Of a stretch of DNA of 1,162 bases, positions 1-1,162 are shown in pieces (the stretch's first letter is position 1; the number at the start of each line of letters is the position of its first letter). The position numbers and the translations under genes are program-made. The notes under the pieces are model-generated. The model did not search any database, was not told the DNA's origin, and saw nothing but the letters and a program-made list of their open reading frames with translations. Where the stretch lies: assembly GCA_000004985.1 (NCBI GenBank), contig GG739521.1; one strand, given 5' to 3'. Origin of the DNA: Naegleria gruberi (taxonomy: Eukaryota).

Positions 1-44
1 ACATGATATATAATAATATCAATTTTTTGAGGTACCCAACTCCC

Positions 45-76
45 GAACGGCTGCGATTCAGACGGTTCCGTAATTG
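45..76 (+). repeat. Direct repeat copy A: GAACGGCTGCGATTCAGACGGTTCCGTAATTG (core GCGATTCAGACGGTTCCG at 53-70)
   Basis: Aligns with 125-156 at about 22 of 32 identities. The 18-bp cores differ at only 2 positions. Copy spacing is 80 bp. Confidence 0.6.
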
Positions 77-112
77 CATAATCAATGAATGTATCGCGTA
101 GCTAACGTTTTC

Positions 113-123
113 AAAAAAAAAAA
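113..123 (+). repeat. Poly(A) homopolymer run, A11
   Basis: Read directly from the sequence. It lies immediately upstream of repeat copy B. Confidence 0.9.
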
Positions 124-124
124 T

Positions 125-156
125 GAAGGAGGGCGATTCAGGCGATTCCGATTAAG
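125..156 (+). repeat. Direct repeat copy B: GAAGGAGGGCGATTCAGGCGATTCCGATTAAG (core GCGATTCAGGCGATTCCG at 133-150)
   Basis: Same alignment as copy A. It also carries the internal sub-repeat GCGATTC twice and an AAGGAGG Shine-Dalgarno-like heptamer at 126-132. Confidence 0.6.
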
Positions 157-193
157 AGACCGGTGTCCATAGATTTAATTTGATTATAAATAT

Positions 194-220
194 AGTGACT
201 TTCGGAATTCACTTTTTTTA
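194..220 (+). terminator. Weak terminator-like element: AGTGA-(10 nt)-TCACT inverted repeat followed by T7
   Basis: A 5-bp AU-rich stem (194-198 and 209-213) lies immediately before TTTTTTT (214-220). The stem is short and GC-poor, so any termination would be weak. It could equally be an operator-like inverted repeat that contains the palindromic GAATTC. Confidence 0.15.
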
Positions 221-425: not shown

Positions 426-578
426 ATGGTCATATTTATCAGTAAACTATATCTTGTGGATTTATATATTAATAGATTTTTCGTTTTTGACACCTCTATT
501 GTAAACACTATAAGATTATTTATTTATAGTTATTTCCATATCTACTTTCGAGTTCATCGACCCCCCCGAAATGTCTGA
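426..578 (+). CDS. Small ORF, 50 codons (MVIFISKLYLVDLYINRFFVFDTSIVNTIRLFIYSYFHIYFRVHRPPRNV); probably a chance ORF
   Basis: Hand translation from the ATG at 426 to the TGA at 576-578. No Shine-Dalgarno sequence upstream. The I/F/Y/L/N-rich composition is what AT-rich DNA encodes by default. It overlaps the promoter-like elements and crosses the compositional boundary. Confidence 0.07.
   Translation: MVIFISKLYLVDLYINRFFVFDTSIVNTIRLFIYSYFHIYFRVHRPPRNV
487..514 (+). promoter_or_regulatory. Sigma70-like promoter: -35 TTGACA (487-492), 16-bp spacer, -10 TATAAG (509-514); predicted TSS about 521, reading into the GC-rich domain
   Basis: The -35 hexamer is a perfect consensus match, the spacer is 16 bp, and the -10 matches 5 of 6 consensus positions. 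Caveat: AT-rich DNA yields promoter-like hexamers by chance. Confidence 0.3.
522..529 (+). promoter_or_regulatory. Alternative reading: archaeal/eukaryal-type TATA-like box ATTTATAG about 27 bp upstream of the GC-rich onset
   Basis: The TATA-like octamer is centred about 26-30 bp upstream of the C7 run and compositional switch at about 556-561, which matches archaeal TATA-to-TSS spacing. This applies only if the source organism is archaeal or eukaryotic, which I cannot determine. Confidence 0.12.
561..567 (+). repeat. Poly(C) run C7 marking the AT/GC compositional boundary
   Basis: TCATCGA-CCCCCCC-GAAATG. G+C content jumps from about 23% to over 55% within the adjacent blocks. Confidence 0.9.
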
Positions 579-588
579 ACTTCAGTTC

Positions 589-951
589 CTAACCTTGCGG
601 ACAGCAGGATCCTAAGGGATTACCCTCATCGAGGGTATCAACGCCCTTCGGAGCCCCCAATGGGTCAACCACCCGTTGGGGCCTGCTGTTCACACCGGGG
701 GTCGGTAACCCTCCCCGCCTGATGAAGGGCGGTGGGCACCCCCAGCCCTTGCGGCTGGGAGCCAAGGCAGCGCGTAACTGCGGGGCGCTGCTAACCAACC
801 AACCAAACCTGACCCGCCACCAGCCAACCAGCCCACCAGCCAGCCAACCACCAGCCACGCGCCCTCTGGCCCACCCAGGCCACGCGTGCGGTCGAGGCAC
901 CCTACAGCCAGCCGGCAGAACCCACGGCCATTCCCACGGACAACGGTCCAA
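589..951 (-). CDS. Probable spurious ORF (120 aa, the only ORF in the supplied track); not a credible protein
   Basis: The translation has about 13 Trp in 120 residues (about 11%, against about 1% typical) and is dominated by W/R/G/P/A. That is exactly what the reverse complement of the CCA/CAGCC low-complexity tract produces (TGG codes W, GGC/GGT codes G). It has no recognisable domain and overlaps the hairpin cluster. Confidence 0.05.
   Translation of the reverse strand: MDRCPWEWPWVLPAGCRVPRPHAWPGWARGRVAGGWLAGGLVGWWRVRFGWLVSSAPQLRAALAPSRKGWGCPPPFIRRGGLPTPGVNSRPQRVVDPLGAPKGVDTLDEGNPLGSCCPQG
621..637 (+). other. Hairpin TACCCTC-ATC-GAGGGTA, 7-bp perfect inverted repeat
   Basis: Reverse complement of TACCCTC is GAGGGTA; the loop is 3 nt. 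Confidence 0.6.
643..654 (+). other. Stem with UUCG tetraloop motif: GCCC-TTCG-GAGC
   Basis: C646:G651 closes the TTCG loop. G643:C654 and C644:G653 extend the stem with one mismatch. C(UUCG)G is a classic stable RNA tetraloop if the + strand is transcribed. Confidence 0.35.
697..713 (+). other. Hairpin GGGGGT-CGGTA-ACCCTC, 6-bp stem including one G:U pair
   Basis: Pairs are 697:713, 698:712 (G:T), 699:711, 700:710, 701:709 and 702:708. Confidence 0.4.
715..732 (+). other. Hairpin CCGCC-TGATGAAG-GGCGG, 5-bp stem and 8-nt loop containing TGATGA
   Basis: Reverse complement of CCGCC is GGCGG. The loop contains UGAUGA, which resembles a C-box or k-turn motif but is a weak signal on its own. Confidence 0.4.
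741..759 (+). other. Hairpin CCCAGCC-CTTGC-GGCTGGG, 7-bp perfect stem and 5-nt loop, of the CAGCC/GGCTG family
   Basis: Reverse complement of CCCAGCC is GGCTGGG. It has the same stem core as the terminal tandem hairpins GCAGCC-TTTT-GGGCTGC. Confidence 0.6.
767..791 (+). other. Hairpin GCAGCGC-GTAACTGCGGG-GCGCTGC, 7-bp perfect stem and 11-nt loop
   Basis: Reverse complement of GCAGCGC is GCGCTGC. Partly competes with an alternative CCTTG/CAAGG pairing at 747-767. Confidence 0.55.
791..860 (+). repeat. C/A-rich low-complexity tract of degenerate CCARCC/CAGCC microsatellite-like repeats; G/T-rich on the minus strand
   Basis: CTAACCAACCAACCAAACC...CCACCAGCCAACCAGCCCACCAGCCAGCCAACCACCAGCCACG. 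CAGCC occurs at 821, 837, 841 and 852. The minus strand reads ...GGTTTGGTTGGTTGG with many GG tracts. Confidence 0.8.
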
Positions 952-1015
952 CCCGCTGCCAGTCCTGACCCCAGGGCTGTCCAGGGAGCCTCCCGCGTGT
1001 GTGACCCGGGAGCCT
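854..1015 (+). repeat. Cluster of short closely spaced direct repeats: GCCACGCG twice (854-861, 879-886), CCCACGG twice (921-927, 933-939), CCAGGG twice (971-976, 981-986), GGGAGCCT twice (984-991, 1008-1015)
   Basis: Read directly. Copy spacings are 25, 12, 10 and 24 bp. This is consistent with low-complexity GC-rich spacer or repeat DNA, not coding sequence. Confidence 0.6.
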
Positions 1016-1059
1016 AGGAGGGCCCCCCAACCGTCCGGCCCAACCGCTGCCCCTGGGGC

Positions 1060-1067
1060 CGATTCAG
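1060..1067 (+). repeat. Third occurrence of the CGATTCAG octamer (CCGATTCAGATA), inside the GC-rich domain just upstream of the tandem hairpin array
   Basis: The exact 8-mer is shared with 55-62 and 135-142. Three copies of one 8-mer in 1.16 kb is unlikely by chance, with roughly 0.02 expected per additional copy. Confidence 0.45.
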
Positions 1068-1074
1068 ATACCTC

Positions 1075-1162
1075 AACCGCAGCCTTTTGGGCTGCCCACA
1101 GCCAAACCGCAGCCTTTTGGGCTGCCCAGATCCTACCAGCCTACCACCGCAGCCCTTTGGGC
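1075..1162 (+). repeat. Tandem array of hairpin-containing units AACCGCAGCC-TTTT-GGGCTGCCCA: copy 1 at 1075-1098, copy 2 at 1105-1128 (identical), variant copy 3 at 1145-1162 (CCCTTTGGGC) truncated by the window end
   Basis: The spacing between copies 1 and 2 is exactly 30 bp, with a 6-bp linker CAGCCA. The spacing between copies 2 and 3 is 40 bp. Each unit contains the inverted repeat GCAGCC/GGCTGC with a T-rich loop. The array continues beyond position 1162. Confidence 0.75.

What the first reader, a model, noticed from the sequence alone, without database searches (positions are those of the whole stretch)
1060..1162. Tandem hairpin-unit array (GCAGCC-TTTT-GGGCTGC) running off the window edge, preceded by the CGATTCAG motif
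Two identical 24-bp units at exact 30-bp spacing and a third variant unit 40 bp on each contain a 6-7-bp perfect inverted repeat with a T-rich loop. The array is cut by the window end, so more copies probably follow. The same CAGCC...GGCTG stem recurs at 741-759. The repeat and linker lengths are far too short for a CRISPR array, and the hairpin is not followed by a T-run, so it is not a terminator. It resembles REP/BIME-like or iteron-like protein-binding hairpin arrays, or a minisatellite in an rDNA-type spacer. It is immediately preceded by CCGATTCAGATA, the third copy of the octamer that defines the upstream direct repeats.
Basis: seen in the sequence. Interest (0 to 1): 0.6.

Follow-up and report, generated by a model that had tools for sequence, protein, structure and literature searches.

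The report
Repeated hairpins in Naegleria rDNA spacer

Summary
The array is complete at three units and does not continue past the window. Two metagenome contigs extend the window, and 18S rRNA starts 272 nt beyond its end. The contig carries 18S, 5.8S, 28S and a GIR1 twin-ribozyme intron. The ORF overlapping the repeat is identical, over the 147 residues inside the window, to the N. gruberi NEG-M plasmid protein BAF74738.1. So the window is AT-rich non-ribosomal sequence (1 to about 550) followed by a GC/C-rich block (about 560 to 1162) that I infer to be the 5' external transcribed spacer (5' ETS) of the N. gruberi rDNA plasmid (CERE).

The array lies 358 to 266 nt upstream of 18S, just 5' of a ~250-nt spacer core conserved in four other Naegleria-like lineages. 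The rest of the GC-rich block cannot be aligned between lineages, and each lineage has its own short tandem repeats there. Unit 3 occupies the position of a hairpin (GCGGC-NNN-GCCGC) found in all other lineages, so units 1 and 2 look like gruberi-specific duplications. All 10 gruberi-type contigs carry exactly three identical units.

Best reading: a slippage or recombination duplication of a pre-rRNA stem-loop, transcribed and then discarded during processing. Low interest. The transcription start has not been mapped.

The parts
1..220 (+). [quoted passage not shown]
   Evidence: Window 3-220 matches two places 373 nt apart in L004. D1 reports 2 copies with 373-nt spacing.
53..70 (+). NRS motif GCGATTCAGACGGTTCCG (contains the CGATTCAG octamer at 54-61)
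   Evidence: D10. Part of the 34-nt family with 7 copies in L004 (D3).
133..150 (+). NRS motif GCGATTCAGGCGATTCCG (octamer at 134-141)
   Evidence: D4 and D10; D3.
500..507 (+). TGTAAACA, a candidate core-promoter motif about 45 nt upstream of the AT-to-GC switch
   Evidence: TGTAACA or TGTAAACA is seen within about 45-110 nt upstream of the composition boundary in all four lineages where the boundary was captured. This is an inference only.
549..560 (+). Sharp AT-rich to GC-rich boundary, the inferred neighbourhood of the RNA polymerase I start site
   Evidence: GC rises from 0.21-0.24 to 0.6-0.7. The boundary was computed at -885 from 18S. No experimental start-site mapping was found.
560..1162 (+). 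GC- and C-rich 5' external transcribed spacer of the pre-rRNA (inferred). It continues 271 nt past the window to the 18S start.
   Evidence: 18S begins at L003 1004, which is window-equivalent 1434. The sense strand folds better than shuffles (z = -3.9, against -1.8 for the antisense). The same layout is found in four related lineages.
722..1162 (+). Annotated 'hypothetical protein' ORF (BAF74738.1 / AUH25139.1, 173 aa, ending at window-equivalent 1243), most likely spurious
   Evidence: Searches show the window translation identical to P0002 over its 147 aa. The only homologues are members of its own 90% cluster. There is no protein-level conservation in other lineages (best E 0.3), and the stop-free length is reached by 4.4% of shuffles.
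741..759 (+). Hairpin CCCAGCC-CTTGC-GGCTGGG, with the same CAGCC/GGCTG stem core as the array units
   Evidence: It is predicted as a local hairpin in the full-spacer fold.
793..857 (+). AACC / ACCAGCCA microsatellite, the only length-polymorphic site of the spacer among gruberi-type copies
   Evidence: TRF. Alignment A1 shows alleles of 0, +15 and +27 nt.
1043..1059 (+). Degenerate 'unit 0', ACCGCTGCCCCTGGGGC, with a small GCCC-CTG-GGGC hairpin
   Evidence: D3 (76% identity to the unit); fold.
1060..1067 (+). Isolated CGATTCAG octamer inside the spacer. It lacks the second half (CGRTTCCG) of the NRS motif.
   Evidence: It may be a chance match.
1075..1098 (+). Hairpin unit 1, AACC-GCAGCC-TTTTG-GGCTGC-CCA (stem 1079-1084 with 1090-1095)
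   Evidence: D3, D5. Its 5' anchor CCTCAACCGC(A/G)GC is shared with the L013 lineage.
1105..1128 (+). Hairpin unit 2, identical to unit 1 (stem 1109-1114 with 1120-1125)
1146..1162 (+). Hairpin unit 3, GCAGCCC-TTT-GGGCTGC, cut by the window end (complete at window-equivalent 1168). It is positionally equivalent to the conserved hairpin GCGGC-NNN-GCCGC of other lineages.
   Evidence: completion; positional equivalence; local hairpin probability 0.77.

Best explanation
The window comes from the circular extrachromosomal rDNA plasmid (CERE) of Naegleria gruberi, NEG-M type. Bases 1 to about 550 are AT-rich non-ribosomal spacer. Bases from about 560 onward are the GC- and C-rich 5' external transcribed spacer (5' ETS), which ends at the 18S gene 272 nt beyond the window.

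The 'array' is three tandem copies, plus one decayed copy, of a 17-nt stem-loop embedded in C/A-rich linkers. It lies 358 to 266 nt upstream of 18S, directly 5' of a ~250-nt spacer core that is conserved across Naegleria lineages.

The third copy is the gruberi version of a hairpin that every examined lineage has at that position (GCGGC-NNN-GCCGC). It differs by one compensatory A-U/G-C pair and two extra C-G pairs. Copies 1 and 2 are gruberi-specific duplications, made by replication slippage or unequal recombination and kept uniform by the homogenisation typical of multicopy rDNA.

Inferred mechanism: RNA polymerase I transcribes the units as part of the pre-rRNA. There they fold either as three local hairpins or as a composite 14-bp hairpin (units 1+2) plus a local hairpin (unit 3). 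They form part of the structured 5' ETS on which the small-subunit processome assembles, and they are degraded with the spacer after cleavage at the 18S 5' end. The extra copies probably have no sequence-specific function.

Shown: source and location, copy number, lineage specificity, the positional equivalence of unit 3, and the predicted folds. Inferred: that the region is transcribed, the position of the start site, and any role in processome assembly.
For: Source and location:
- The 24-mer unit finds two metagenome contigs that contain the window at 97-99% identity.
- L003 runs into an 18S 5' end, TACCTGGTTGATCCTGCCAG (Rfam SSU).
- L002 carries, on the same strand, a GIR1 ribozyme plus a His-Cys homing endonuclease gene in the SSU, then 5.8S with a ~33-nt ITS1, then the LSU.
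- The overlapping ORF falls in the same 90% cluster as N. gruberi BAF74738.1 and AUH25139.1, and the window translation is identical to the former.
- This architecture matches published CERE descriptions, including an ORF upstream of 18S and an endonuclease-like ORF downstream of 28S (PMC5805870).

Copy number: exactly 3 units in 10 contigs.

Lineage specificity:
- Only -248..-1 of the spacer aligns to four other lineages whose 18S 5' ends are 94-96% identical.
- Each lineage has its own short tandem repeats in the GC-rich block, with copy-number differences between contigs.

Positional equivalence:
- The hairpin GCGGC-NNN-GCCGC lies about 6-11 nt 5' of a helix that carries a GNRA (GAAA) loop in most lineages (GGAA and a longer loop in two) and is kept in all. 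In gruberi, unit 3 lies about 13 nt 5' of it (sequences; helix columns).
- The 5' anchor CCTCAACCGC(A/G)GC and the 3' anchor CACAG are shared.
- The L033 lineage has independently duplicated its hairpin.

Folding: the sense strand gives z = -3.9, and unit 3 has local hairpin probability 0.77.

Precedent: the Didymium iridis ETS carries four direct-repeat types in 2-5 copies (PMC13182076).
Against: - No experimental transcription start site exists for any Naegleria rDNA in the literature I could search. That the array is transcribed rests on the composition switch, on continuity with the conserved core, and on general knowledge of rDNA units.
- The array is invariant in 10 contigs from different samples, while the nearby microsatellite varies. 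This could mean constraint rather than neutrality, although these copies are only 1-3% diverged overall.
- The equilibrium fold does not favour three separate hairpins for units 1 and 2 (local probability about 0.1).
- The equivalence of unit 3 with the conserved hairpin rests on position and one compensatory pair, not on a statistically testable alignment. MAFFT misaligned it.
Confidence: 0.75

Rival explanations
1. All three hairpins are functionally required RNA elements. They would form a multi-copy docking platform in the pre-rRNA for a processome protein or snoRNP, or an element that shields the spacer or times its cleavage, so that copy number is under selection.
For: - The array is invariant in 10 contigs while the neighbouring microsatellite varies.
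- It sits immediately 5' of the conserved spacer core.
- A hairpin at the unit-3 position is present in every lineage, and another lineage has also duplicated it.
Against: - Other Naegleria lineages manage with one copy, or with two in L033.
- Units 1 and 2 are 100% identical to each other over 24 nt, as expected of a recent duplication.
- The gruberi-type contigs are too close (97-99%) for invariance to mean much.
- The surrounding block cannot be aligned between lineages.
Confidence: 0.13
2. It is a DNA-level protein-binding array on the plasmid: iteron-like origin or copy-control sites, a replication-fork barrier, or polymerase I enhancer or proximal-terminator sites. On this reading the GC-rich block is not, or not only, transcribed spacer.
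For: - The element is an autonomously replicating, roughly 4000-copy circle (PMC11008152).
- The direct repeats are spaced 30 bp apart, about three helical turns.
- The adjacent CGATTCAG octamer is shared with oriented NRS repeats found upstream.
Against: - The array lies inside a GC-rich block contiguous with the conserved core that abuts 18S.
- It is not conserved in related plasmids.
- No Rep-type gene is present. The only plasmid ORFs with a Pfam hit are His-Cys box endonuclease-like.
- The spacer octamer lacks the second half of the NRS motif.
Confidence: 0.08
3. The repeat is coding. It would encode a tandem peptide (TAAFWAAHSQ / TAAFWAAQ) within the annotated hypothetical protein BAF74738.1.
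For: - A 173-182-aa ORF spans the array and is annotated in both published N. gruberi plasmid sequences.
- The microsatellite length variants (+15 and +27 nt) keep the frame.
- The stop-free stretch is somewhat longer than in shuffles (216 against 142 +/- 35 codons).
Against: - There is no homologue outside its own 90% cluster among 5.8 billion proteins.
- There is no protein-level similarity in the spacers of other lineages (best E 0.3).
- In other lineages the long ORFs lie on either strand.
- The sequence is low-complexity and P/A/T/Q-rich, as expected from C-rich DNA.
- 4.4% of shuffles reach the same length.
- The frame-preservation argument is biased, because most of the contigs were retrieved through the protein.
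Confidence: 0.03
4. It is a bacterial REP/BIME-type repetitive extragenic palindrome, or a CRISPR-like array.
For: It consists of short GC-rich palindromes in tandem.
Against: - The source is a eukaryotic rDNA plasmid.
- The 24-mer has no matches in bacterial or archaeal genomes.
- The single viral hit is an unrelated lone hairpin.
- The spacers between units are 6 and 16-17 nt.
- No RAYT or cas genes are present.
Confidence: 0.01

Closest known systems
Short direct sub-repeats in the external transcribed spacers of extrachromosomal rDNA, for example repeat motifs E-H in the 1,483-bp ETS of Didymium iridis (PMC13182076)
   Same: These are short direct repeats in 2-5 copies between the polymerase I start and the 18S gene of a multicopy extrachromosomal rDNA. 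They are lineage-specific and vary in copy number between isolates and lineages.
   Different: Here each unit is itself a perfect small hairpin. One copy corresponds to a hairpin conserved across the genus. The gruberi array showed no copy-number variation in 10 contigs. The transcription start is mapped in Didymium but not in Naegleria.
Repeat families of the Naegleria CERE non-ribosomal sequence (PMC5805870, PMC7714845)
   Same: Same molecule. The published descriptions note numerous repeats (34-371 bp in N. gruberi EGB), G+C-rich stretches, and an ORF of unknown function upstream of 18S.
   Different: The published accounts treat everything outside the 18S-28S region as 'non-ribosomal sequence' and do not delimit a 5' ETS. 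The 30-nt hairpin units are below the size of the repeats they list, and they lie in the GC-rich block rather than in the AT-rich repeat region.
Helices of the yeast or human 5' ETS that scaffold the small-subunit processome (UTP-A, UTP-B, U3 snoRNP). This comparison rests on established knowledge and was not tested here.
   Same: A series of stem-loops separated by single-stranded linkers in the spacer 5' of 18S, with a conserved 3' portion next to the 18S 5' end.
   Different: There is no sequence homology. U3-binding sites and cleavage sites are not identified in Naegleria. The tandem identical copies have no counterpart in yeast.
REP/BIME elements of bacteria
   Same: Short GC-rich imperfect palindromes that can occur in tandem clusters.
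   Different: REPs occur in bacterial chromosomes, in hundreds of dispersed copies, and are mobilised by RAYT transposases. This is a eukaryotic plasmid with 3-4 copies at one site and no RAYT.
Plasmid iterons
   Same: Direct repeats at regular spacing on an autonomously replicating circle.
   Different: Iterons lie in an AT-rich origin next to a rep gene and are not palindromic hairpins. Here the repeats are in a GC-rich, probably transcribed spacer, with no rep gene, and are not conserved in sister plasmids.

Membership tests
Naegleria gruberi rDNA plasmid (CERE) | A single 18S-5.8S-28S unit plus AT-rich repeat-laden non-ribosomal sequence on a ~14-kb circle | tested here: met
   Rfam finds SSU, 5.8S and LSU on one strand of L002. 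The NRS repeats are seen. The unit length in L004 is 13,799 bp, from duplicated features in a 23-kb contig. Published sizes are 14,007 and about 14,128 bp.
Naegleria gruberi rDNA plasmid (CERE) | Sequence identity to the deposited N. gruberi plasmid | tested here: met
   The window's frame +2 translation is identical over 147 aa to P0002 = BAF74738.1 (N. gruberi), and clusters with AUH25139.1 of strain EGB. A direct nucleotide comparison with AB298288 was not possible with these tools.
rDNA 5' ETS sub-repeat (spacer minisatellite) | Located between the polymerase I start site and the 5' end of 18S | tested here: inconclusive
   The distance to 18S is shown (array at -358 to -266). The start site is only inferred from the AT-to-GC switch at about -885. 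No mapping was found in the literature.
rDNA 5' ETS sub-repeat (spacer minisatellite) | Lineage-specific, in a fast-evolving part of the spacer, with different repeats in related taxa | tested here: met
   Only -248..-1 aligns between lineages. Other lineages have unrelated 18-nt, 41-nt, CGCAAGGGC-type or CCAGCCAGAC repeats.
rDNA 5' ETS sub-repeat (spacer minisatellite) | Copy-number polymorphism between individuals or strains | tested here: not met
   There are 3 units in all 10 gruberi-type contigs. Polymorphism is seen for the adjacent ACCAGCCA microsatellite and for the repeats of other lineages. This feature is common but not obligatory for the class.
REP/BIME | Bacterial host, with many dispersed intergenic copies and an associated RAYT | tested here: not met
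   The host is a eukaryote. There are no matches in 185,579 prokaryotic genomes. Only 4 sites exist in the 14.4-kb element, all at this locus. No transposase ORF is present.
Iteron-type replication origin | Direct repeats within or next to an AT-rich unwinding region and a rep gene, bound by Rep | tested here: not met
   The local GC content is 63-74% and there is no rep-like ORF. Protein binding is not testable here.
CRISPR array | Repeats of 23-50 nt separated by unique spacers of similar length, usually with cas genes | tested here: not met
   The gaps between the 24-nt units are 6 and 16-17 nt, there are three copies only, and the locus is eukaryotic.
Intrinsic (rho-independent) terminator | GC-rich hairpin followed directly by a U-run | tested here: not met
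   The hairpins are followed by CCCACAG, CCCAGAT and CCCTACC.

The most novel reading that the evidence does not exclude
The triplicated hairpin is not a neutral duplication but a dosage-sensitive element of the plasmid. One version is an RNA platform that recruits several copies of a Naegleria-specific pre-rRNA processing factor at the 5' border of the conserved spacer core. The other is a DNA-level barrier that coordinates polymerase I transcription with theta-type replication of the ~4000-copy circle. This would explain its complete invariance while the neighbouring microsatellite varies.
Probability: 0.07. Interest if true: 0.45.

Novelty: new member of a known kind. Interest (0 to 1): 0.15.

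Why it matters
Little, beyond tidying the annotation. The results show three things:
- The stretch of the Naegleria rDNA plasmid that published accounts lump into "non-ribosomal sequence", and annotate as a hypothetical ORF, is most probably the 5' external transcribed spacer.
- This spacer has a ~250-nt core conserved across Naegleria lineages and a fast-evolving, repeat-prone GC/C-rich 5' part.
- The hairpin array is one lineage's expansion of a conserved stem-loop.

This could help people who want to build CERE-based vectors or map the polymerase I promoter in Naegleria. It also flags BAF74738.1 and AUH25139.1 as likely non-genes. It does not reveal a new kind of element.

Tried and rejected
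- Rfam scan of the window at E up to 10 gave only sub-threshold noise. There were no tRNAs.
- BLASTN against the phage and plasmid collections found nothing. PLSDB is bacterial.
- The viral scan with the hairpin core gave one contig, which proved to be an unrelated single hairpin (CCGCAGCCTTTTGGGCTGCGG) with no other similarity.
- The prokaryote genome scan with the 24-mer gave 0 hits.
- Early idea, dropped: a GC-rich structured ncRNA in an AT-rich hyperthermophile. L003 ran into a eukaryotic 18S.
- Coding reading of the +2 ORF: rejected as unlikely.
- I tried to reach other Naegleria plasmids through the endonuclease-like NRS ORF. It gave only gruberi-type hits and one 2-kb contig too short to reach the spacer.
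- The bait that worked was a spurious ORF in the 18S 5' end.
- A literature search for a mapped Naegleria polymerase I start site or a defined 5' ETS found nothing. Clark and Cross 1987 and Mullican 2019 are not held.
- MAFFT/RNAalifold did not align gruberi unit 3 with the conserved hairpin of other lineages. That equivalence is argued from position and flanking anchors only.
- U3 snoRNA pairing sites could not be sought, because no Naegleria U3 sequence was available.

Full report
**1. The observation**

The window has two halves. Bases 1 to about 550 are AT-rich (21-42% GC). Bases from about 560 to 1162 are GC-rich (53-74% GC) and C-rich on the + strand, with GC skew down to -0.4.

- At the 3' end, AACCGCAGCCTTTTGGGCTGCCCA occurs at 1075-1098 and again, identically, at 1105-1128.
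- A variant, ACCGCAGCCCTTTGGGC, starts at 1146 and is cut by the window end.
- A more degenerate copy lies at 1043-1059.
- Each unit contains a perfect 6-7-bp inverted repeat.
- A hairpin with the same CAGCC/GGCTG core is at 741-759.
- CGATTCAG is at 54-61, 134-141 and 1060-1067.

In the longer contig L002 these patterns are far above chance. There are four CAGCC-N3-6-GGCTG sites against 0.01 expected, and eight CGATTCAG sites against 0.29 expected. So the description is accurate.

**2. Where the window comes from**

Rfam, tRNA, phage and plasmid searches on the window gave nothing. The hairpin core gave one irrelevant viral hit. The 24-mer is absent from 185,579 prokaryotic genomes.

It is present in two metagenome contigs that contain the window at 97-99% identity.

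- **L003** continues 357 nt past the window. At window-equivalent position 1434 it begins TACCTGGTTGATCCTGCCAG, the 5' end of a eukaryotic 18S rRNA.
- **L002** (14.4 kb) carries the following on the same strand:
  - a GIR1 branching ribozyme next to a His-Cys box homing endonuclease gene inside the SSU (a twin-ribozyme intron);
  - the rest of the SSU;
  - 5.8S after an ITS1 of about 33 nt;
  - the LSU;
  - about 7 kb of AT-rich, repeat-laden sequence with a second His-Cys box ORF;
  - the GC-rich block.

The ORF that overlaps the GC-rich block belongs to a 90%-identity cluster. That cluster contains BAF74738.1 and AUH25139.1, the hypothetical proteins of the two published Naegleria gruberi rDNA plasmids. 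The window's translation is identical to the former over all 147 residues it covers. The published description of the N. gruberi EGB plasmid matches in four respects: G+C-rich stretches, many repeats, an endonuclease-like ORF downstream of 28S, and an unassignable ORF upstream of 18S (PMC5805870).

The source is therefore the N. gruberi extrachromosomal rDNA circle (CERE). The array lies 358 to 266 nt upstream of 18S.

**3. The array is complete at three units**

In L002 and L003, which extend past the window end, unit 3 is finished (GGGCTGCCC). It is followed by CTACCACCACAGCCAGCGAAGCC... and no further unit. Ten gruberi-type contigs from different samples all have exactly three units with identical sequence. 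The only length polymorphism in the whole block is the ACCAGCCA microsatellite at window 793-857, with alleles of 0, +15 and +27 nt.

**4. Comparison with other Naegleria lineages**

A spurious ORF in the 18S 5' end served as bait and retrieved 27 further loci. They represent four other lineages whose first 480 nt of 18S are 94-96% identical to gruberi.

- All have the same layout. About 250 nt of moderate GC lie next to 18S, then a GC/C-rich block of about 450 to more than 1100 nt, then AT-rich sequence.
- Only the last ~250 nt align to gruberi, at 74-87% identity. This core contains several hairpins. One of them, capped by a GNRA loop (GAAA) in most lineages (GGAA in L033, a longer loop in L034), keeps its pairing through changes on both sides in many sequences. 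Across the helices counted, 97.6% of cells are paired, against 30-43% when partners are slid.
- The GC-rich block upstream cannot be aligned, and each lineage has its own short tandem repeats there. The L034 lineage has an 18-nt unit in 2 to 10 copies and a 41-nt unit in 2 to 5 copies in the contigs that reach that part of the spacer, giving spacers of about 694, 820 and 918 nt. The L013 lineage has CGCAAGGGC-type hairpin units in 2 to 11 copies. The L023 lineage has CCAGCCAGAC-type microsatellites.

The gruberi array lies at the 3' edge of this variable block.

**5. Relation of the units to a conserved hairpin**

In every non-gruberi lineage a hairpin, CGCGGC-NNN-GCCGC-AC(AG), lies about 6-11 nt 5' of the base of that capped helix. 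Gruberi unit 3 (GCAGCCC-TTT-GGGCTGC, followed by ...CACAG) lies about 13 nt 5' of it (sequences; helix columns). The stems differ by one compensatory pair (A-U against G-C) and two additional C-G pairs.

The 5' flank of unit 1 (CCTCAACCGCAGCC) matches CCTCAACCGCGGC in the L013 lineage. So the interval between shared anchors is about 110 nt with three hairpins in gruberi, and about 55 nt in L013. The L033 lineage has its own duplication of the hairpin, 60 nt apart.

I read this as follows. Unit 3 is the ancestral hairpin. Units 1-2, identical to each other, are gruberi-specific tandem duplications. This step is an inference from position and flanks. The automatic alignment did not place unit 3 on the conserved hairpin.

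**6. Folding**

The + (rRNA-sense) strand of 560-1162 folds better than shuffles (z = -3.9), while the antisense gives -1.8. In a fold of the whole inferred spacer, unit 3 forms its local hairpin with probability 0.77. Units 1 and 2 preferentially form a composite hairpin with two 7-bp stems separated by a UUU/UUU internal loop, and the local hairpins have probability about 0.1. Co-transcriptional folding could still favour local hairpins, but this was not testable here.

**7. Mechanism**

*Shown:* the location in the rDNA unit, copy number, lineage specificity and fold predictions.

*Inferred from established knowledge of rDNA:*
- RNA polymerase I starts near the AT-to-GC switch (window about 550-560), which gives a spacer of about 880 nt.
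- The array is transcribed, folds into GC hairpins between C/A-rich linkers, and forms part of the structured 5' ETS on which the small-subunit processome assembles.
- It is degraded after cleavage at the 18S 5' end.
- The duplication arose by slippage or unequal exchange and is kept uniform by homogenisation of a ~4000-copy plasmid population.

No start-site mapping for Naegleria was found. The published accounts call everything outside the rRNA cistron (18S to 28S with the two internal spacers) "non-ribosomal sequence".

**8. Rivals**

- **A functional multi-copy RNA platform.** This is not excluded. The array is invariant and sits at the core border. However, other lineages have one copy, and the gruberi contigs are too similar for invariance to carry weight.
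- **A DNA-level element (iteron, fork barrier or enhancer).** This is unlikely. The context is GC-rich and contiguous with the core, there is no rep gene, and there is no conservation.
- **The coding reading.** This is unlikely. There is no homologue outside its own cluster and no protein-level conservation in other lineages. The ORF length is reached by 4.4% of shuffles.
- **REP/BIME, CRISPR and terminator readings.** These fail their defining features.

**9. Comparison with the known, and novelty**

The closest known kind is the short direct sub-repeat of rDNA external transcribed spacers. An example is the Didymium iridis ETS, with four repeat types in 2-5 copies (PMC13182076). The DNA itself is already public (AB298288, MG699123), and the region carries a hypothetical-protein annotation. 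The hairpin array, the delimitation of a 5' ETS and its conserved core do not appear in the papers I could read.

Verdict: a new, unremarkable member of a known kind. Interest 0.15.

Noticed in passing
window 53-70 and 133-150; L004 6173-9420: The CGATTCAG octamer is part of a longer NRS motif, GCGATTCAG-R-CGRTTCCG, which is itself two 9-nt half-repeats. It occurs 9 times in about 3.3 kb upstream of the GC-rich block, 8 of them in the rRNA-sense orientation, partly within a 373-bp direct repeat. The arrangement resembles the oriented factor-binding repeats (enhancer or terminator sites) upstream of polymerase I promoters in other eukaryotes. The copy inside the spacer (1060-1067) has only the first half and may be chance.
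   Followed up: partly
window 793-857: The AACC/ACCAGCCA microsatellite is the only length-variable site among 10 gruberi-type spacers (0, +15, +27 nt). All variants happen to keep the annotated ORF in frame, but most of the contigs were found through that ORF.
   Followed up: yes
window 722-1162 (to window-equivalent 1243): The GenBank hypothetical proteins BAF74738.1 and AUH25139.1 (173 aa) are translated from the GC-rich spacer. They are most likely not genes: no homologues, no conservation in sister lineages, and low-complexity composition.
   Followed up: yes
window 500-507; L026, L034, L014 upstream regions: TGTAACA or TGTAAACA lies 45-110 nt upstream of the AT-to-GC switch in all four lineages where the switch was captured. 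It is a candidate polymerase I core-promoter element.
   Followed up: no
window 716-733: The hairpin CCGCC-UGAUGAAG-GGCGG has a loop resembling a C-box/kink-turn sequence (UGAUGA). Its significance is unknown.
   Followed up: no
L008 1675-1917 and alignment A2 columns 173-435: A ~250-nt spacer core next to 18S is conserved across five Naegleria-like lineages. It has several hairpins, including one capped by GAAA in most lineages, that keep pairing through compensatory changes. Cleavage sites and U3 docking sites probably lie here.
   Followed up: partly
L002 14046-14242 (-), 13315-14079 (-); L008 end at 2587: L002 carries a twin-ribozyme SSU intron (GIR1 at 202.7 bits, plus a 254-aa His-Cys box endonuclease). 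L008 ends, and L002 starts, about where the published S516 intron site should lie (S516 is recalled from the literature, not tested here), which suggests mixtures of plasmids with and without the intron in the samples.
   Followed up: partly
L002 6341-7408 (-); L004 3327-4382; L011 9977-11011: The His-Cys box (PF05551) ORF downstream of 28S is intact (344-355 aa) in several environmental plasmids, although the EGB paper calls it a likely pseudogene. It is only 81% identical between two gruberi-type lineages whose spacers are 97-98% identical.
   Followed up: no
L034, L035, L037, L039 upstream of 18S: In another Naegleria-like lineage the spacer holds an 18-nt tandem repeat (GATTCTATCCATTGGGCT) in 2 to 10 copies and a 41-nt repeat in 2 to 5 copies in different contigs. 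Spacer length therefore ranges from about 694 to 918 nt.
   Followed up: partly
window 936: The window has A where all 10 related contigs have C (GGACAAC against GGCCAAC). This is a private variant or a sequencing difference.
   Followed up: no
window 560-1162 and all related spacers: The rRNA-sense strand of the variable spacer block is strongly C-rich and G-poor in the gruberi lineage (GC skew down to -0.4). By eye the same holds in the other four lineages, where skew was not computed. The pre-rRNA there would be largely unpaired C/A-rich linker punctuated by short GC hairpins.
   Followed up: no
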